DNA of 9,574 nucleotides from a virus (lineage: Duplodnaviria; Heunggongvirae; Uroviricota; Caudoviricetes), in the IMG/VR virus record IMGVR_UViG_2671180432_000011; one strand, 5' to 3'. Numbering within the stretch: the stretch's first letter is position 1; the number at the start of each line of letters is the position of its first letter. Position numbers and translations under genes: made by a program. The notes below the pieces were generated by a model, which saw only the letters and a program-made list of their open reading frames with translations, ran no database searches and was not told where the DNA came from. Shown one piece after another: positions 201 to 8,967 of this stretch.

Positions 201-1283
201 TCATTTTCTCTGGCTGATCTTTACCGGATAACCATCCCGAAGATCAATTAAGTGCTCCGGTTCAGAAGCAAACCATGCATAAGATCCCCACGCCAATTCT
301 GGTATTGCCTTTTTAAAAGGCAGAGCACTTCTGTCCATAAATGCCGTAAGGAATGCAAGATTTTTCTCGCTGAACCCAGCGTCAATAGCCAAATGAGTGA
401 GAGTAACTTTTCGTTCCCTGTTTATAGGCCCATCTGTCGCAACTACTTCAGTGAAAACTACAAGCATGTCCGAACCCGTTCGGTCCTCTCCCAAATCAAT
501 CAAAATAATATCTGGAAGTGCTTTTGAGGCATCAATATTCAGCCCCAATGCTTTTGCCAATACATCATCCTGAGCAACAACTTTATTCCCGGATTCAGAC
601 AACCAGAGCACAGTTGGATTCTTAAGAAAATTAGGAGCAAAAACTTCGATGACGGCCTTAGCTATTGTACTTGACGGGCCCGGAGCTAAAGTTCTCTTCT
701 CTCCATTTGGGAAAGTGACGACTACGGCATCAGCAGCAATCACTGCCCCTGATTTCAATAAACGCAACCTAGCAAGAGCGGCTTTGTTCAAATGATTTTC
801 TTGCCAGGAACTTATTGCACTCAGCAGCGAATCTCCTTCAAGCCCGGCATCAAAGAGTGCTGCAAAAGAGCGATTCAAACTGTAACGAGGACGAGAGGAT
901 GTGGTGGGTATACCTTTACGCTCAACAATTGCATTGCAAGGTATTAGGCCATTTTTTATAGTTTCATCACGTATTGGCTCACGCGTATTTTCCGCATACC
1001 ATGCATCAGCAGGCCTTATCTTTTGTTTAGAGAAAGTCATCTTTACCCAGCTTTCTCTGGACGCATCATCAGTAAGAGCAGCCTGCGAATCTCCCATACT
1101 TACAACCTGGCTGGGCCTTATCCATCGCCCCAGCCCCTCAACCGCACCAGCATAAAACATGACAAAAATTGTTTTTGCAGCTATTTCCCGAATTAAATAT
1201 CCACGATTCTCAGTCCCTTCAGGGAAAATTAATTGTAATCTTTCCCGGATAACATTCAATGGGGGAACAACAGGCAGATTCAT
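201..1283 (-). CDS. Candidate Type II restriction endonuclease, 360 aa, partner of the upstream methyltransferase; family unassigned (BsuBI/PstI-like is a hypothesis only)
   Basis: Uninterrupted 360-codon ORF. Its ATG (1283-1281) overlaps the methyltransferase TGA stop (1282-1280) as ATGA, implying translational coupling. GGAG lies about 10 nt upstream inside the methyltransferase 3' end. Possible PD-(D/E)xK-like stretch 'LPDIILIDLGED...VVFTEVV'. No Walker or methyltransferase motifs. The nuclease function is inferred from context, not shown. Confidence 0.5.
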   Translation of the reverse strand: MNLPVVPPLNVIRERLQLIFPEGTENRGYLIREIAAKTIFVMFYAGAVEGLGRWIRPSQVVSMGDSQAALTDDASRESWVKMTFSKQKIRPADAWYAENTREPIRDETIKNGLIPCNAIVERKGIPTTSSRPRYSLNRSFAALFDAGLEGDSLLSAISSWQENHLNKAALARLRLLKSGAVIAADAVVVTFPNGEKRTLAPGPSSTIAKAVIEVFAPNFLKNPTVLWLSESGNKVVAQDDVLAKALGLNIDASKALPDIILIDLGEDRTGSDMLVVFTEVVATDGPINRERKVTLTHLAIDAGFSEKNLAFLTAFMDRSALPFKKAIPELAWGSYAWFASEPEHLIDLRDGYPVKISQRK

Positions 1284-3112
1284 GCAATCATCACTCCATA
1301 GAAACCAGCGATAGTTCTCTCAATAATCCGTCTGTGGACGCCAGCATCAATTAACGATTGAATCTCCATCACCTGCTCCAGAGAAGGCAACGGGATTGAA
1401 TTCAATTCATAGGCCGAAACAGCAACACTTCCGCTTATACACCTGAACGCCCGATCGACAACATGCGAATTAAGTAGCATATCAATAACATCAGGGCGAA
1501 CCGCAGAGAACAATCCGTTTGAATATACAATATTAATATGGTTTTCAACTACTACGCCACCAGTTTCATCTATAAATCCCTGAGGTAAAATTGCCGCTAA
1601 AATCCTTCTGTCCTGTTCCTTCGATGTTGTCCGCTGAACAAGCACACATTCAGATTTTGTCACAAGGAAACCCTGTTGTGGGGTTATATCGATATAGGGA
1701 ACATGATTTTTTCTGTCTGCACTAAAACGAAAACCAGCTGAAGTTATTGATTCCGCCCAGACTAATGGGTAGCTATTTTTTCCTTTCGTCGTACGCAACT
1801 GCGACTTAAATCGATTCCAGACTAACTGACCTGTAGAGACTGAGTATCCCAGATCAGCTAAACGCGTAGACATCTGTTTTAATACATTAAGAAAACAGGC
1901 ATCATCTTTAACGCGTGGCAAAAGCCACGTTGCTCCACCTTTTTCTATATCAACATTACCTATTTTCTCAATTTTTGCTTTGTTCAACCCCTTAGGGACA
2001 AGTGAGGATACCTGGGCCCGAACTTTATGTTCTCCCGCCTTGAATGCTGTCAACATTGTTTCCTGGAGAACATCGTCAAAGACCCCATCCCTGTCAGTGA
2101 CGAAATCAAGGGCATACGGAGTAGTTTTTTCGGTCAAAAGGGTTCGCAGCGCGGTGAAATACTGCCCACCAAGAAAAGAAGTTGGCGTAAGAAATGCAAT
2201 AACTCCTGTTTTCTCTTTAACCATGCGAACAGCTAAGTCGGTGAACAATCCATATAGATTTGCATGACCAAATAACGAACGAGAATATTTTTCTCTCGTT
2301 TTAATATCGAGAGTGACACGTCCGTAAGGCGGATTCCCTACCACAAGATCATAACCAGAAAATTTATCTTGCTGAAGCGCATCAGCAACAATAATTGTAT
2401 CTTCAGGCAATCTACGTTTTACCTTTACACATAGTGGCATTAGTACAGATTCGAGCAATACCAAACTCATCCAAGCCGCAAATGGATCGATCTCTATCCC
2501 CTTTAAACGACGACTGATTCTCCTCAACATCCATTCAGGGGAAGACCCCTTGTCTTTTTTTAACATTCGAATGGCTACTGGTGCCAAAAATGCACCGCCA
2601 CCACACGCAGGATCAATAACCGATGCATGAGAAAAATCAACACCAGACTTTTCAGCCAGGTCCAAGAGACGCGCTACCAAAGGTGGGGGGGTATAGTAAG
2701 CCCCCAATTCCGAACGGTAAGCGGATGGCAGCATTACCGTATAAATTGACCCAATCAGATATCCAGCGTCCTCCGCCGGAAATTGAGCAATAAGCTCACC
2801 TGTTCGTTCAGCGAGCTCGCGTGCATCACATGGAATGTCTTCTATGTAAACAGTGTGCGGTACTGCCCTCATTTTAATGCTGCTTTTTTGCTTTTTTGCA
2901 AGGGTATCCCAATATGCAGCTACGATGCTGAAGCAGTATGAGCGGGCATGCATCAACCTTGACTGCCCGGTTTTGTAATTGCCCGCATAACCTTTGGCCA
3001 TGGCTTTACAAGTTTGATATCTTTCCAGATTAGAAAACTCATTATCTGTAAAAAAATCAAAATGTTGCACATTCATAATGTAAAATCCTAATGTATCAAA
3101 CATGCGGGCCAT
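1280..3112 (-). CDS. N6-adenine DNA methyltransferase, gamma class (Eco57I/TaqI-like motif order), 610 aa
   Basis: AdoMet-binding motif I 'VIDPACGGGAFL' is followed about 90 aa later by catalytic motif IV 'VVGNPPYG'; this order is diagnostic of gamma-class amino-methyltransferases. A C-terminal region of about 280 aa after NPPY is the likely target-recognition domain. The start is uncertain: ATG at 3112, 3103 or 3076, the last with AGGA upstream. Confidence 0.85.
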   Translation of the reverse strand: MARMFDTLGFYIMNVQHFDFFTDNEFSNLERYQTCKAMAKGYAGNYKTGQSRLMHARSYCFSIVAAYWDTLAKKQKSSIKMRAVPHTVYIEDIPCDARELAERTGELIAQFPAEDAGYLIGSIYTVMLPSAYRSELGAYYTPPPLVARLLDLAEKSGVDFSHASVIDPACGGGAFLAPVAIRMLKKDKGSSPEWMLRRISRRLKGIEIDPFAAWMSLVLLESVLMPLCVKVKRRLPEDTIIVADALQQDKFSGYDLVVGNPPYGRVTLDIKTREKYSRSLFGHANLYGLFTDLAVRMVKEKTGVIAFLTPTSFLGGQYFTALRTLLTEKTTPYALDFVTDRDGVFDDVLQETMLTAFKAGEHKVRAQVSSLVPKGLNKAKIEKIGNVDIEKGGATWLLPRVKDDACFLNVLKQMSTRLADLGYSVSTGQLVWNRFKSQLRTTKGKNSYPLVWAESITSAGFRFSADRKNHVPYIDITPQQGFLVTKSECVLVQRTTSKEQDRRILAAILPQGFIDETGGVVVENHINIVYSNGLFSAVRPDVIDMLLNSHVVDRAFRCISGSVAVSAYELNSIPLPSLEQVMEIQSLIDAGVHRRIIERTIAGFYGVMIA

Positions 3113-3194: not shown

Positions 3195-3326
3195 TCTTTG
3201 TAGCTGAACTCACTTGGTGATTTGTCAATCATTCCTGGCCTCCAGTTCGTCCTGAATCTCTTTATCGAGTTCACCGTATTTGTTAGTCCTCATCACTCAC
3301 GACTTGACTTCCAGAAATAACCTTGA

Positions 3327-3886: not shown

Positions 3887-4136
3887 NNNNNNNNNNNNNN
3901 NNNNNNNNNNNNNNNNNNNNNNNNNNNNNNNNNNNNNNNNNNNNNNNNNNNNNNNNNNNNNNNNNNNNNNNNNNNNNNNNNNNNNNNNNNNNNNNNNNNN
4001 NNNNNNNNNNNNNNNNNNNNNNNNNNNNNNNNNNNNNNNNNNNNNNNNNNNNNNNNNNNNNNNNNNNNNNNNNNNNNNNNNNNNNNNNNNNNNNNNNNNN
4101 NNNNNNNNNNNNNNNNNNNNNNNNNNNNNNNNNNNN

Positions 4137-4168
4137 TCCCGCTCTTCCTGTGTAAATACTTTTGCCAT
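4137..4168 (-). CDS. 5' end of a small hypothetical gene (MAKVFTQEER...) running into the N-run
   Basis: ATG at 4168 with a G-rich RBS (GGGGGCGCTT) about 5 nt upstream, 15 nt after the stop of the preceding gene. Its frame differs from the 3741-3886 fragment, so this is probably a separate small gene. Confidence 0.3.
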
Positions 4169-4183
4169 AAGCGCCCCCGGCAA

Positions 4184-4930: not shown

Positions 4931-5438
4931 TTACTTCACAACTCCCGGAAAGCTGACATTTGAACGCCAGCTATCCCAGTTAAACGTCACCCACCGACAA
5001 CCGTTCATGGTCATGCGGTCCATAATCCTCTCACCAAGAAGCGTGCTCATTGCGGCATGATTCAGGTTTGTTAACATCCCGACACTGCACAGTGATGCTG
5101 TCCGGCGATCAATTATCTGGTGCAATACCACCTGCTCGTTTTTCGTCTCCCGCTGAATGCCTATTTCATCCAGGACCAGCAAATCAACCCCGCAAAGCTC
5201 CTGTAAAAATTTTTCACCGGATTTGCCGTTGTCGTAGCTGTCATGCAACACGCTCATGACATCAGACTCGGTGACGATAATCACGCTGCGCCCCTTCGCC
5301 ATCAGCCGGTTACCCATCGCCGCTGCAAGGTGATTTTTCCCGGTGCCGGTTTTACCGCTGAACACAAAATTCGTGCACCCGGTCATCAGTTCGTCAGCTA
5401 TGGATTTGGCCTGGCTCAGCGCGTATTTTTGCCCGTCG
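4931..5438 (-). CDS. DnaC-like AAA+ helicase loader (replication protein), C-terminal about 169 aa visible; N-terminus masked
   Basis: Walker A 'FSGKTGTGKNHLAAAMG' and Walker B 'VDLLVLDEIG'. I checked that the frame stays open upstream of the track start at 5386 as far as the mask ('...DGQKYALSQAKSIADEL-MTGCTNF...'). Confidence 0.85.
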
Positions 5439-5688
5439 NNNNNNNNNNNNNNNNNNNNNNNNNNNNNNNNNNNNNNNNNNNNNNNNNNNNNNNNNNNNNN
5501 NNNNNNNNNNNNNNNNNNNNNNNNNNNNNNNNNNNNNNNNNNNNNNNNNNNNNNNNNNNNNNNNNNNNNNNNNNNNNNNNNNNNNNNNNNNNNNNNNNNN
5601 NNNNNNNNNNNNNNNNNNNNNNNNNNNNNNNNNNNNNNNNNNNNNNNNNNNNNNNNNNNNNNNNNNNNNNNNNNNNNNNNNNNNNNNN

Positions 5689-6660
5689 GGGGTTTTCAAA
5701 ATTCCGGTCCGGCCCAAAAAACGTCGTCGCTCGCTGAACAAATTCCGTTCCCGCTTTCCCGGTCGCCGCCAGGTATCTCGCGTAACGCCTCACACCATCC
5801 AGCATGGTCTCTGGTGGCCCCCCCTCGCGCAATCTGGCCTTCCAGGCACTGAATGCGGATTTCTTCGGGTTTGCCCCGGCACGCAACGGGTATTCCCGCC
5901 AGACCTGTTCGAACACATCCGGATAATCCACTCGTCCCACAGGCTGCCCGGTGTTTTCCGGGGCTACCCGATCGGCTTCCCGCTGAATGGCGGAATCGGC
6001 TTCAGGCTGCTGCAGTTGGAGTGATTGCTCCGGCCTTGCGGTCATCACCTGCTGCACAGCGCCCGAATCGGCTTTCAGCGCATACGCTGAATCGGCTTCC
6101 GGTGTCGAGCCTGCTGGCTGACCAGGATTGACGGTCTGAACATCCCCTGCCTGGTTCGTGGCGTTTTTTACGCCATGGACCATAGTGTTTTGATCTTCTT
6201 TATCTGTATCTTTATCTGTATCTGTCGTGACTCGTCGTGACATGTGCGTGACATTTCGTGACGCGCCGTGACAATCGCCATTTTGTTCCCGCTTTCTTTC
6301 CCTCTCTCGCTGCGCCCTCTTGCGCTCTGCAGGAGATTTTGCGGTTTGCGAAATATTGCCGTTGTCCTCTTTAAGCACCTGGCGTTTTTCCCATCCAGTG
6401 ATTAAATCACCATCAAGTACCCGCCCCTGCATCGTCTGCAAAATTGAATCAATTACCTCTTCTGTCACGTCGAGCGCACTTGCCAAATCTTCTGTCGTGA
6501 CATCAATGTGACCTCGCGTGACATTTCGTGACGCGCTCACCAGGAGGTGGATATACACTGCCATCACTGTTGCAATTGGCTGCCCTGACACCCTGGCAAT
6601 TGTTCGCCACTTAGGGTCATTTGGCATGTCATGCCATAATCTGAGCCAGGCGTTAGCCAT
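5689..6660 (-). CDS. Putative replication initiation protein (lambda-O position; possibly YdaU-like), N-terminal about 324 aa visible; 3' end masked
   Basis: ATG at 6660 with RBS GAGGTG 4 nt upstream. It sits between the CII-position gene and the DnaC-like gene. Phased iteron-like CGTGAC repeats lie inside it. Low-complexity linker 'TDTDKDTDKED'. Confidence 0.6.
6221..6272. repeat. Iteron-like array A: five CGTGAC hexamers phased at 10-11 bp (starts 6226, 6236, 6247, 6257, 6267), inside the initiator gene
   Basis: Read directly. Includes the 21-bp unit GCGTGACATTTCGTGACGCGC at 6246-6266, which recurs exactly at 6516-6536. A 12-bp tandem (ATCTGTATCTTT / ATCTGTATCTGT, 6202-6225) lies immediately upstream. 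Confidence 0.5.
6491..6540. repeat. Iteron-like array B: CGTGAC/TGTGAC hexamers phased at 10-11 bp (starts 6496, 6507, 6517, 6527), plus an inverted copy GTCACG at 6464-6469
   Basis: Read directly. Contains the second exact copy of the 21-bp unit at 6516-6536. Confidence 0.5.
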
Positions 6661-6731
6661 ACTCACCTCTTCTGATACCGAATCTTTTTACTCACGAGTT
6701 GCCGGGAGCGATTCGATATGGCTATTGTCAG

Positions 6732-7017: not shown

Positions 7018-7278
7018 NNNNNNNNNNNNNNNNNNNNNNNNNNNNNNNNNNNNNNNNNNNNNNNNNNNNNNNNNNNNNNNNNNNNNNNNNNNNNNNNNNN
7101 NNNNNNNNNNNNNNNNNNNNNNNNNNNNNNNNNNNNNNNNNNNNNNNNNNNNNNNNNNNNNNNNNNNNNNNNNNNNNNNNNNNNNNNNNNNNNNNNNNNN
7201 NNNNNNNNNNNNNNNNNNNNNNNNNNNNNNNNNNNNNNNNNNNNNNNNNNNNNNNNNNNNNNNNNNNNNNNNNNNNNN

Positions 7279-8050: not shown

Positions 8051-8245
8051 ATGAGTACAGTCCTTTCCCCAATGGTTTCAGAATTTGAGACAGTTGAGCA
8101 AGAAAATAGTTACAACGAATGGCTGCGGGCCAAAGTAGCAGCAAGCCTCGCGGATCCCCGCCCGGCGATTCCGCATGATGAGGTAATGGCGGAAATGGAA
8201 CAAATTATTGCCCAAATTGCTGCTGCAACTCACAGAGGTGAATAA
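8051..8245 (+). CDS. paaA: PaaA-like antitoxin of a ParE-family toxin, 64 aa
   Basis: RBS AGGAG at 8036-8040. The sequence 'LSPMVSEFETVEQENSYNEWLRAKVAASLADPRPAIPHDEV' closely resembles PaaA2 as I recall it. The stop overlaps the toxin start (TAATG). Confidence 0.7.
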   Translation: MSTVLSPMVSEFETVEQENSYNEWLRAKVAASLADPRPAIPHDEVMAEMEQIIAQIAAATHRGE

Positions 8246-8535
8246 TGTTACCCGTTTTATGGCTACCATCTGCTCGTGATGATTTGCGCCAGATCGTAGC
8301 CTACATAGCTAAAGAAAATCCCGCGGCAGCACGCAGAATGAAAATTCGAATTGAAACATCCGTTTTGCCGCTCACAGAGCATCCTTACCTGTATCCTCCA
8401 AGCGAGCGAGTTCTTGGTCTTCGTGAAATTGTAACTCATCCTAACTACATCATCCTTTACCGAGTAACAGCATCAAGCATAGAAGTAGTAAATATTGTGC
8501 ATTCTCGAAGACAGTATCCAGGCAAAAACAGTTAA
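8245..8535 (+). CDS. parE: ParE-family toxin (RelE/ParE superfamily), 96 aa
   Basis: ParE signatures 'LWLPSARDDLRQIVAYIAKENPAAA' and 'REIVTHPNYIILYRV...IEVVNIVHSRRQYP'. 1-nt start/stop overlap with the antitoxin gene. Confidence 0.85.
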   Translation: MLPVLWLPSARDDLRQIVAYIAKENPAAARRMKIRIETSVLPLTEHPYLYPPSERVLGLREIVTHPNYIILYRVTASSIEVVNIVHSRRQYPGKNS

Positions 8536-8606: not shown

Positions 8607-8814
8607 TACATCAAAAAAAATAATGATGCTATTGTTTCAGGCGTCAACCCACCCCGCCCCACAGAATGCAGGGCAATACTTCGAGTTACCAGACAGTGGT
8701 CAGGGGTTAAGTAGCCAGCCCGAGGCGTAAGAACATGACGGCAGGGTTCAATCTTTAACTATGCAGCAGGTTTTTTGTTCCGCCACCCCGGCGTTAAGGG
8801 GAAATGAGGTCAGC

Positions 8815-8967
8815 ATGGATACTATCGATCTTGGCAACAACGAATCTCTGGTGTGCGGCGTGTTCCCTAACCAGGATGGAACGTTTACCGCCATGACGTA
8901 TACCAAAAGCAAAACGTTTAAAACCGAATCTGGCGCGCGTTGCTGGTTAGCCAGAAACACTGACTGA
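8815..8967 (+). CDS. Small hypothetical protein, 50 aa (MDTIDLGNNESLVCGVFPNQDG...)
   Basis: ATG at 8815 with GAGG 5 nt upstream. The track's longer start at 8761 lacks an RBS. The position matches small early-leftward prophage genes. Confidence 0.4.
   Translation: MDTIDLGNNESLVCGVFPNQDGTFTAMTYTKSKTFKTESGARCWLARNTD

What the first reader, a model, noticed from the sequence alone, without database searches (positions are those of the whole stretch)
6199..6540. Helically phased CGTGAC iterons and an exact 21-bp direct repeat inside the initiator gene: candidate replication origin
There are two clusters of CGTGAC hexamers spaced at 10-11 bp (five at 6226-6272, four at 6496-6532) and a perfect 21-bp repeat GCGTGACATTTCGTGACGCGC at 6246-6266 and 6516-6536. 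A 12-bp tandem repeat lies beside the first cluster. In lambda the origin is a set of iterons inside the O gene bound by O protein; this looks like the analogous arrangement. The repeats also give the protein repeated 'ASRNVT...VTT' segments.
Basis: partly seen in the sequence, partly recalled or inferred. Interest (0 to 1): 0.5.

Follow-up and report, generated by a model that had tools for sequence, protein, structure and literature searches.

The report
Prophage replication origin inside initiator gene
The repeats are real and look like the replication origin of an E. coli prophage, built like the phage lambda origin (initiator-binding repeats, an easily melted AT-rich tract, a hairpin) inside the initiator's own gene; the same layout is kept in related prophages of many bacteria, but nobody has tested its function.

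Summary
There are five exact CGTGAC hexamers at 6226-6272, spaced 10/11 bp. At 6496-6532 there are three exact copies plus one TGTGAC variant. The exact 21-bp repeat and the 12-bp tandem are also there. The hexamers sit in all three reading frames of a minus-strand gene for a phage replication initiator, which is followed by a DnaC-like helicase loader.

I compared 62 homologous loci from other species (mostly proteobacteria, plus a few metagenome bins labelled otherwise):
- Both arrays keep their position and phasing.
- The motif falls into three main classes (GTCACG, GTAACG, CGAACGC), nearly always the same class in both arrays.
- The downstream array is always followed by an AT- and purine-rich tandem tract, even in hosts with 60-69% GC, and often by a hairpin.
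- Prophage mosaics break exactly at the end of this tract. Repeats plus N-domain therefore move as one module, and C-domain plus loader as another.

Order and position within the gene nearly match lambda ori in gene O, although the proteins show no detectable sequence similarity. The origin reading is well supported by comparison but is not demonstrated. It is a new member of a known kind. The second array, inside the DNA-binding-domain coding sequence, is the unusual part.

The parts
6226..6272 (-). Iteron array 1: five GTCACG cores (gene strand) on a 10/11-bp period, in the linker-coding part of the initiator gene (aa 132-147).
   Evidence: Conserved at the same gene position in 62 related loci, with class switches.
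6496..6532 (-). Iteron array 2: three exact GTCACG cores plus one GTCACA variant (6507-6512), inside the coding sequence of the winged-helix N-domain (aa 45-57).
   Evidence: The same hexamer as in array 1 in 33 of 39 loci. Synonymous sites are frozen.
6464..6469 (+). Single inverted copy of the core, about 30 bp downstream of array 2 in the gene direction.
   Evidence: Present at the equivalent place in 14 of 22 GTCACG-type loci. Significance uncertain.
6246..6266 (-). Copy 1 of the exact 21-bp di-iteron unit (GCGCGTCACGAAATGTCACGC on the gene strand).
   Evidence: Lineage-specific long words shared between the two arrays occur in many loci (mean 11.5 nt against 7.0 for a control zone).
6516..6536 (-). 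Copy 2 of the exact 21-bp di-iteron unit.
6183..6225 (.). AT-rich tract, purine-rich on the gene strand, which includes the 12-bp tandem at 6197-6223. Candidate DNA unwinding element. It encodes DTDKDTDKED.
   Evidence: Least stable 40-bp duplex of the gene starts at 6182 (-43.2 against mean -57.8, sd 3.9). A homologous tract follows array 1 in nearly all loci (mean GC 0.27 against 0.55 for the gene). Asp codons GAT:GAC are 193:12 in the tract against 516:580 elsewhere. The length varies between 3 and 12 hexamer units among near-identical E. coli copies.
6152..6182 (.). Inverted repeat (13 pairs, 2 of them G-T; 5-nt loop) directly after the AT-rich tract.
   Evidence: Hairpin-forming sequences are enriched in the 80 nt after the tract across 57 loci (mean z -1.58 against -0.36; 20 against 4 loci with z<-2; Wilcoxon p 2e-6). 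This is the same relative place as the lambda ori palindrome.
6274..6660 (-). N-terminal domain of the initiator (winged helix). The probable true start is the ATG at 6660, because homologues begin MAN...
5689..6190 (-). Visible part of the C-terminal domain of the initiator. The 3' end and the stop codon are hidden in the masked run 5439-5688.
   Evidence: 91% identical to the C-domain of an O157 prophage initiator that has an unrelated N-domain.
4931..5386 (-). DnaC/IstB-like AAA+ helicase loader (5' end masked), the presumed partner of the C-domain.
   Evidence: Pfam IstB_IS21, E 5e-18. PHROG 'DnaC-like helicase loader', E 2e-55. NCBIfam DnaC, E 4e-59.

Best explanation
The segment at about 6150-6540 is the vegetative replication origin of this lambdoid E. 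coli prophage, embedded in the gene of its own initiator.

Proposed mechanism:
1. The winged-helix N-domain of the initiator binds the GTCACG cores. Their 10/11-bp period puts them on one face of the helix, head to tail: five in the linker-coding region and three or four about 270 bp upstream.
2. The resulting nucleoprotein complex destabilises the adjacent AT-rich, strand-asymmetric tract (6183-6225), which is bounded by an inverted repeat (6152-6182).
3. The C-domain brings in the DnaC-like loader encoded just downstream, and with it the host DnaB helicase.

Shown here: the repeats, their phasing, their DNA-level conservation, their co-variation, the AT tract, the hairpin, the fold of the N-domain and the module boundaries. 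Inferred: binding, melting, loader recruitment, and any role of the upstream array (looping or strengthening of the complex, or negative control).
For: (1) The repeats are far beyond chance. In the 40-kb genome of the 97%-identical phage Evi, the only clusters of the hexamer lie in this gene: 8.4 per kb against 0.44 per kb elsewhere.

(2) The selection is on DNA, not protein. The hexamers occupy all three frames. In 22 GTCACG-type homologues, third-codon positions inside the hexamers have mean entropy 0.10 against 1.37 outside. The four positions not fixed by my selection of loci score 0.53, 0.27, 0 and 0. Val-Thr is encoded GTCACG 80 of 138 times in the array zones and 4 of 33 times elsewhere.

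(3) The layout is conserved in 62 loci from other species (mostly gamma-, beta- and alphaproteobacteria, plus a few metagenome bins labelled Acidobacteria, Anaerolineaceae, Collinsella or Solirubrobacteraceae). The arrays lie at gene nt ~135-170 and ~360-440. Spacing between successive cores is 10 (84 cases) or 11 (22 cases).

(4) The core switches class (GTCACG, GTAACG, CGAACGC, and others), nearly always the same class in both arrays. 33 of 39 loci have the same hexamer in both; 0 of 2000 permutations reach the observed concordance; the rest of each gene holds 0-1 copies.

(5) An AT- and purine-rich tandem tract always follows array 1. Its strong GAT/AAA codon bias persists even in GC-rich hosts. 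It is the least stable duplex of the gene. Hairpins are enriched after it.

(6) Mosaic breakpoints fall at window ~6191-6203. One prophage has the same N-domain and keeps the CGTGAC arrays and the tract, but has a DnaT-like C-domain and a lambda-P-like loader. Another has the same C-domain and a DnaC-like loader, but an unrelated N-domain. It carries a different phased repeat (AAGCCCCTT), again in two clusters about 265 bp apart.

(7) Order and coordinates match lambda. Lambda O has iterons at nt 349-433, an A-rich tract at 434-476 and a palindrome at 477-504. This gene has the same three elements at nt 389-435, 436-478 and 479-509. In lambda and in SPP1 this arrangement is the proven origin (PMC7466680, PMC6316719).

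(8) The N-domain model is a winged helix, most like DnaD-NTD and replication-initiator winged-helix domains.
Against: There is no experimental evidence for binding, unwinding or origin activity for any member of this family, and I found no paper on it. The 62 loci are related, so the conservation statistics are not independent events. Linkage of the repeats to the N-domain is partly automatic, because they lie inside the gene. Some homologues lack the upstream array (L122, L137, L144) and a few lack obvious repeats (L110, L112, L131, L133), so the upstream array at least is dispensable. No residues outside the array-2-encoded loop distinguish the iteron classes, which leaves the recognition mechanism unexplained. 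The hairpin test used mononucleotide shuffles and a single control zone.
Confidence: 0.75

Rival explanations
1. The hexamer arrays are initiator-binding sites, but they serve autoregulation or copy control rather than initiation. Possible mechanisms are a transcriptional roadblock within the initiator's own gene, or pairing of arrays as in iteron plasmids. Replication would then start elsewhere.
For: Array 2 lies early in the coding region, where bound protein could block transcription from the early promoter. Two separated arrays recall the control iterons of P1 and F-type plasmids (my own knowledge, not tested here). Some homologues lack array 2, as expected for an accessory regulatory element.
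Against: Array 1 is universally coupled to a conserved tract of low duplex stability and a hairpin, in the exact lambda order. A pure operator would not need these. No other cluster of the motif exists in a complete 40-kb relative, so no alternative origin with the same sites is visible.
Confidence: 0.1
2. The repeats are binding sites for some other protein, such as a host factor or a phage regulator (for example the YdaT/CII-like or Cro-like products encoded upstream), and not for the initiator.
For: Nothing direct. Binding by the N-domain is only inferred, and no specificity-determining residues were found outside the loop encoded by array 2.
Against: The arrays stay inside the initiator gene across very different prophages and hosts. 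They change class together with the N-domain lineage. They are replaced by a different repeat when the N-domain is replaced. They stay with the N-domain when the C-domain and loader are swapped.
Confidence: 0.07
3. The repeats have no DNA-level function. They would be a by-product of a repetitive or low-complexity protein linker, of replication slippage, or of recombination scars at a module junction.
For: The tract encodes a low-complexity DKDT linker. Its unit number varies between 3 and 12 among near-identical prophages. Mosaic junctions sit at its edge.
Against: The hexamers are read in three frames. Synonymous positions inside them are frozen while neighbouring ones vary. The codon choice GTCACG for Val-Thr is specific to the array zones. 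The GAT/AAA bias of the tract persists in hosts with 60-69% GC. RNA folding of the region is no better than shuffles (z 0.64), and there is no Rfam match.
Confidence: 0.04

Closest known systems
Phage lambda ori inside gene O (and the six-iteron origins of Stx phages P27 and 933W)
   Same: The origin lies in the middle of the initiator gene, between an N-terminal DNA-binding part and a C-terminal part that recruits the loader. The order is iteron array, then an A-rich AT tract on the coding strand, then an inverted repeat, at almost the same gene coordinates. The gene order is early promoter, cro, cII-like gene, initiator, loader. Extra iterons upstream of the core four exist in Stx phages and are needed for replication (PMC7466680).
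   Different: There is no detectable sequence similarity to O (no Pfam hit; hhalign probability 0.1%). The iterons are 6-bp asymmetric cores in direct repeat on a 10/11-bp period, not 18-19-bp dyad-symmetric sites. A second array lies 270 bp upstream, inside the DNA-binding-domain coding sequence. The loader is DnaC-like, not P.
Bacillus phage SPP1 oriL inside gene 38 (replisome organizer G38P)
   Same: Direct repeats plus an AT-rich unwinding element lie inside the organizer gene and are bound by its product, and a loader gene follows (PMC6316719). SPP1 gene 38 shows ACG-containing direct repeats followed by an A-rich tract at mid-gene. The window protein gives weak PHROG matches to 'replisome organizer' families (E 1.7e-5 and 3.4e-4). 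NCBI names close relatives 'phage replisome organizer'.
   Different: The profile comparison with G38P is not significant, and there is no Pfam PF09681 hit. SPP1 has a second origin, oriR, far away in the genome. Here the second array is intragenic, and no distant cluster exists in a complete relative.
Iteron-containing plasmid origins (Rep winged-helix initiators such as pPS10, F, R6K and RK2)
   Different: Plasmid iterons are about 17-22 bp and lie outside the rep gene. The Rep proteins have two winged-helix domains. No sequence relationship was found.

Membership tests
Lambda-type origin (ori within the initiator gene) | Located inside the initiator gene, at the junction between the N-terminal (origin-binding) and C-terminal (loader-binding) parts. 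| tested here: met
   Array 1 and the AT tract lie at aa 132-158. Mosaic breakpoints fall at window ~6191-6203. The N-domain and C-domain are exchanged independently.
Lambda-type origin (ori within the initiator gene) | An array of four or more repeated initiator-binding sites. | tested here: inconclusive
   An array of 5 (plus 3-4 upstream) phased repeats is present and conserved. Binding by the initiator cannot be tested with these tools.
Lambda-type origin (ori within the initiator gene) | Iterons of 18-19 bp with internal dyad symmetry. | tested here: not met
   The conserved core is the asymmetric hexamer GTCACG in direct orientation on a 10/11-bp period. Flanking positions are only weakly biased. 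Compare the lambda iterons.
Lambda-type origin (ori within the initiator gene) | An AT-rich tract on the promoter-distal side of the iterons, followed by an inverted repeat. | tested here: met
   Lambda comparison.
Lambda-type origin (ori within the initiator gene) | Initiator homologous to lambda O (Pfam Phage_rep_O). | tested here: not met
   No Pfam family at E<=0.01. hhalign of the N-domain profile against lambda O gives probability 0.1%.
Lambda-type origin (ori within the initiator gene) | The fragment supports initiator-dependent replication. | not testable with these tools
   Needs cloning or marker-frequency experiments.
SPP1 G38P-type replisome organizer with internal oriL | N-terminal domain of the replisome-organizer family. 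| tested here: inconclusive
   PHROG 'replisome organizer' families match at E 1.7e-5 and 3.4e-4. The fold is most like the DnaD N-terminal winged helix. NCBI names relatives 'phage replisome organizer'. Against this, there is no Pfam hit, and hhalign against G38P gives probability 0.2%.
SPP1 G38P-type replisome organizer with internal oriL | Direct repeats plus an AT-rich unwinding element inside the organizer gene. | tested here: met
   SPP1 gene 38 sequence. Description in PMC6316719.
SPP1 G38P-type replisome organizer with internal oriL | A second, distant origin (oriR) with the same repeats. | tested here: not met
   In the complete 40-kb genome of the 97%-identical phage Evi, no cluster of the hexamer exists outside the initiator gene.

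The most novel reading that the evidence does not exclude
This is a bipartite origin. The second iteron array is written into the coding sequence of the initiator's own DNA-binding domain (end of helix 31-47 and loop 48-57). It is functionally required, for example for looping or wrapping about 230-270 bp of DNA into the initiation complex, or for feedback control. The family has diversified into at least three main iteron classes by concerted change of both arrays. The only residues that distinguish the classes (aa 48 and 50) are the ones encoded by the iterons. So the same nucleotides may specify both the binding site and part of the reading head.
Probability: 0.25. Interest if true: 0.6.

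Novelty: new member of a known kind. Interest (0 to 1): 0.4.

Why it matters
This replication module occurs in about 40% of complete E. coli genomes (2237 of 5426), including Shiga-toxin-producing lineages, and in prophages of many proteobacteria. Yet its origin has apparently never been mapped. A defined origin would help in several ways:
- It would allow construction of replicons and marker-frequency assays for these prophages.
- It would explain why mosaic junctions fall where they do.
- It offers a natural series of initiator and iteron specificity classes (GTCACG, GTAACG, CGAACGC, and AAGCCCCTT with an unrelated domain) for studying how origin recognition evolves while the binding sites must also encode protein.

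It also shows that the lambda layout (iterons, AT tract, hairpin in the middle of the initiator gene) recurs with proteins that have no detectable sequence similarity.

Tried and rejected
- **Protein-level repeat:** rejected. The hexamers use three frames, synonymous sites are frozen, and codon choice is specific to the array zones.
- **Structured RNA:** rejected. There is no Rfam match, and the mRNA segment folds no better than shuffles (z 0.64).
- **Internal promoter:** one weak sigma-70-like match at 6248-6275, against 0.7 expected. Not pursued.
- **Homology to lambda O or SPP1 G38P:** not significant by profile comparison. No Pfam or NCBIfam family matches the initiator.
- **Specificity-determining residues in the N-domain outside the array-2-encoded loop:** none found.
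- **Literature:** searches for a prior description found nothing on this family. The motif-string search returned only irrelevant primer sequences. The Eru replication-region paper on Stx phages does not mention iterons or this module.
- **Viral-contig scan with the N-domain:** returned only 99%-identical E. coli copies. It was useless for divergence, but it gave the tract-length polymorphism.
- **First hairpin test with a crude perfect-stem finder:** only a small difference, 5.6 against 4.8. It was replaced by the energy-based test.

Full report
**1. The observation**

CGTGAC occurs on the + strand at 6226, 6236, 6247, 6257 and 6267 (spacing 10, 11, 10, 10) and at 6496, 6517 and 6527. One inverted copy lies at 6464-6469.

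- The window has 9 copies against 2.9 expected, and none of 200 dinucleotide-preserving shuffles reaches 9.
- A chain of five copies of one hexamer at 10/11-bp spacing was never approached in 5000 mononucleotide shuffles of the gene, where the maximum was 3.
- The 21-bp repeat is exact at 6246-6266 and 6516-6536.
- The 12-bp tandem TCTTTATCTGTA is at 6197-6223.

**2. Context**

The repeats lie in a minus-strand gene that runs from the listed GTG at 6666 (more probably the ATG at 6660, since homologues begin MAN...) into the masked run 5439-5688.

- The protein matches phrog_3729 'replication initiation protein' at E 8e-225. It has no Pfam or NCBIfam family.
- Downstream lie a DnaC/IstB-like AAA+ loader (4931-5386) and a DUF1627 gene.
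- Upstream lie a YdaT/CII-like gene, a Cro-like HTH gene and a divergent CI-like repressor.

This is a lambdoid early-right operon. The DNA is 97% identical to Escherichia phages Evi, Tritos and others. It matches 2237 of 5426 complete E. coli genomes.

**3. The repeat is a DNA-level feature**

- On the gene strand the core is GTCACG. It is read in all three frames: as Val-Thr, as (S)er-Arg, and across Cys-His-Gly.
- In 22 homologues of the GTCACG type, third-codon positions of conserved residues have mean entropy 0.10 inside the hexamers and 1.37 outside (Mann-Whitney p 9e-6). Four of the eight in-hexamer positions were fixed by how I chose the loci. The other four score 0.53, 0.27, 0 and 0.
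- Across all loci, Val-Thr is encoded GTCACG 80 of 138 times in the array zones and 4 of 33 times elsewhere.
- The mRNA segment has no unusual fold (z 0.64), and there is no Rfam match.

**4. Comparative evidence**

A scan of one genome per species with an alignment of N-domain homologues gave 62 loci. Most are from gamma-, beta- and alphaproteobacteria; a few are metagenome bins labelled Acidobacteria, Anaerolineaceae, Collinsella or Solirubrobacteraceae. Amino-acid identity to the window ranges from 37% to 98%.

- **Position.** In most of them the same architecture appears at the same place. One array lies at gene nt ~135-170 and one at nt ~360-440.
- **Spacing.** Spacing between successive cores is 10 (84 cases) or 11 (22 cases) for GTCACG, and 10 (44) or 11 (4) for the GAACG class.
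- **Core classes.** The core falls into three main classes: GTCACG (22 loci), GTAACG(C) (about 6) and (C)CGAACGC (19). Variants include CGTCACG at 5/10-bp spacing (L109) and ACTACGTA (L130, L141).
- **Concordance.** The two arrays of a locus carry the same core. Of 39 loci with at least three phased copies in the downstream array, 33 have at least two copies of the same hexamer in the 82-nt upstream zone. The rest of each gene holds 0-1 copies. No permutation of 2000 reaches the observed concordance (106 against a mean of 51 and a maximum of 78).
- **Shared words.** Many lineages share 17-21-nt words between their two arrays, and the words differ between lineages (mean 11.5 nt against 7.0 for a control zone).
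- **Exceptions.** A few loci have only the downstream array (L122, L137, L144). A few have no obvious repeats.

**5. The AT-rich tract and the hairpin**

- Directly after the downstream array, nearly every locus has a tandem of AGATAA, AGATAC or AGAGAA units. Mean GC of the lowest 36-nt window is 0.27, against 0.55 for the genes, with 77% purine on the coding strand. In the 16 loci with at least 60% GC it is 0.32.
- Asp and Lys codons in the tract are GAT:GAC 193:12 and AAA:AAG 153:43. Elsewhere in the same genes they are 516:580 and 467:425.
- In the window the tract (6183-6225) is the least stable 40-bp duplex of the gene (-43.2 kcal/mol against mean -57.8, sd 3.9). It is among the four least stable places of the whole window.
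- Among 80 near-identical E. coli copies, the iteron numbers are almost constant (3+5 in 76 copies, 3+4 in 4), while the tract varies from 3 to 12 hexamer units.
- An inverted repeat follows immediately at 6152-6182 (13 pairs, two of them G-T).
- Across 57 loci, the 80 nt after the tract fold better than shuffles (mean z -1.58; 20 loci below -2). A control zone in the N-domain gives mean z -0.36 with 4 loci below -2 (Wilcoxon p 2e-6). The stems have different sequences; CCCCC...GGGGG is common. This test is crude: it used mononucleotide shuffles, a single control zone, and related loci.

**6. Modules**

Partial matches in E. coli genomes stop at query positions 502 and 514, which correspond to window ~6191-6203, the distal edge of the AT tract.

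- One prophage (L002) has the same N-domain at 87% DNA identity. It keeps five CGTGAC, the tandem tract and an expanded upstream array. Its C-domain is DnaT-like and is followed by a lambda-P-like gene.
- An O157:H7 prophage (L003) has the same C-domain (91%) and a DnaC-like loader, but an unrelated N-domain. At the corresponding places it carries a different phased repeat, AAGCCCCTT: three copies next to a purine-rich tract, and two copies about 265 bp further into the N-domain coding region.

So the repeats and the tract travel with the N-domain, and the loader travels with the C-domain.

**7. The protein**

- An AlphaFold2 model of aa 1-131 has mean pLDDT 78.8 and exceeds 90 over most of the core. 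It is a winged helix.
- The upstream array encodes the end of helix 31-47 and the loop 48-57.
- Only residues 48 and 50 distinguish the GTCACG and CGAACGC classes at 75% consensus or more. How specificity is read therefore remains open.

**8. Specificity within a genome**

In the complete 40-kb genome of phage Evi, 9 of the 26 copies of the hexamer (both strands) lie in the initiator gene. That is 8.4 per kb against 0.44 per kb elsewhere, and no other cluster exists.

**9. Comparison with known origins**

| Element | Lambda gene O (nt) | This gene, from ATG 6660 (nt) |
|---|---|---|
| Iterons | 349-433 | 389-435 |
| A-rich tract | 434-476 | 436-478 |
| Inverted repeat | 477-504 (28-bp palindrome) | 479-509 |

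- In lambdoid phages this arrangement in the middle of O is the origin. The iterons bind O, and the AT tract is where unwinding occurs. Stx phages carry two extra iterons that are needed for replication (PMC7466680).
- In SPP1, oriL lies inside gene 38 and consists of direct repeats plus an AT-rich unwinding element bound by gp38 (PMC6316719). The gene 38 sequence shows the same layout at mid-gene.
- The window protein is not detectably similar in sequence to O or G38P.
- Its repeats are short asymmetric direct repeats rather than 19-bp dyads.
- The intragenic second array has no counterpart in either model.

**10. Verdict**

The origin reading is the best explanation (confidence 0.75). It rests on anatomy and strong comparative signals, not on function.

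The rivals are:
- initiator-binding sites used only for control (0.10);
- sites for another protein (0.07);
- no DNA-level function (0.04).

I found no description of this family's origin in the searchable literature. However, predicting an origin from repeats inside a phage replication gene by analogy with lambda is routine (for example PMC7924643). I therefore rate it a new member of a known kind, of moderate interest. The conserved, concertedly evolving second array is the feature most worth an experiment.

Noticed in passing
L003 ~3023-3060 and ~3291-3318 (E. coli O157:H7 JEONG-1266 prophage): An initiator with an unrelated N-domain but the same C-domain carries a different phased repeat, AAGCCCCTT. 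It has three copies next to a purine-rich EQEQ-coding tract and two copies about 265 bp upstream in the N-domain coding region. The two-array layout may therefore recur in a second, unrelated N-domain family.
   Followed up: partly
window 6197-6223; L004-L083: The AT-rich tandem is length-polymorphic (3 to 12 hexamer units) among 99%-identical E. coli prophage copies, while iteron numbers stay at 3+5 (76 of 80 copies).
   Followed up: yes
P0043, P0061, P0076; L145: Some homologues of the N-domain are fused to an HNH endonuclease domain (PF01844) instead of a loader-recruiting C-domain. L145, which is one of them, shows no iteron arrays.
   Followed up: no
L130 and L141 (Serratia MAG, Pantoea sp.): These divergent homologues have ACTACGTA-type phased repeats at gene nt ~330-365, no AGATAA tract, and a much longer protein. 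They may be a different origin design.
   Followed up: no
L149 2530-2640 (SPP1 gene 38): SPP1 gene 38 has GAAACGACA and AAAGACACG direct repeats followed by an A-rich tract at mid-gene. The cores contain ACG, as all three iteron classes of this family do. The N-domain region aligned to array 2 has three ACG at 9-bp spacing. This may be coincidence or deep homology.
   Followed up: no
window 201-1283 (-) and 1280-3112 (-): A restriction-modification pair sits in the prophage: a BsuBI/PstI-family endonuclease (E 9e-45) and an Eco57I/N6-adenine methylase-like protein of 610 aa.
   Followed up: no
window 8051-8245 (+) and 8245-8535 (+): A PaaA2-like antitoxin and a ParE-family toxin pair lie next to the immunity region, followed by a DUF1391 (YdfA-like) gene at 8761-8967.
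   Followed up: no
window 6464-6469: An inverted copy of the core (Asp-Val-Thr encoded GAC GTG ACA) lies about 30 bp after array 2. It is present at the equivalent place in 14 of 22 GTCACG-type loci.
   Followed up: partly
P0019; L143: Near-identical (97-99%) fragments of this E. coli initiator are filed under Staphylococcus saprophyticus and a Collinsella MAG. This is probably contamination or mis-binning.
   Followed up: no
window 3900-4180, 5439-5688, 7019-7278: Three masked N runs hide the 3' end of the initiator gene, the 5' end of the loader gene, and parts of the cro/YdaT-like genes. The window appears to be IMG/VR contig UViG_2565956726_000003 (same length, 9574).
   Followed up: no
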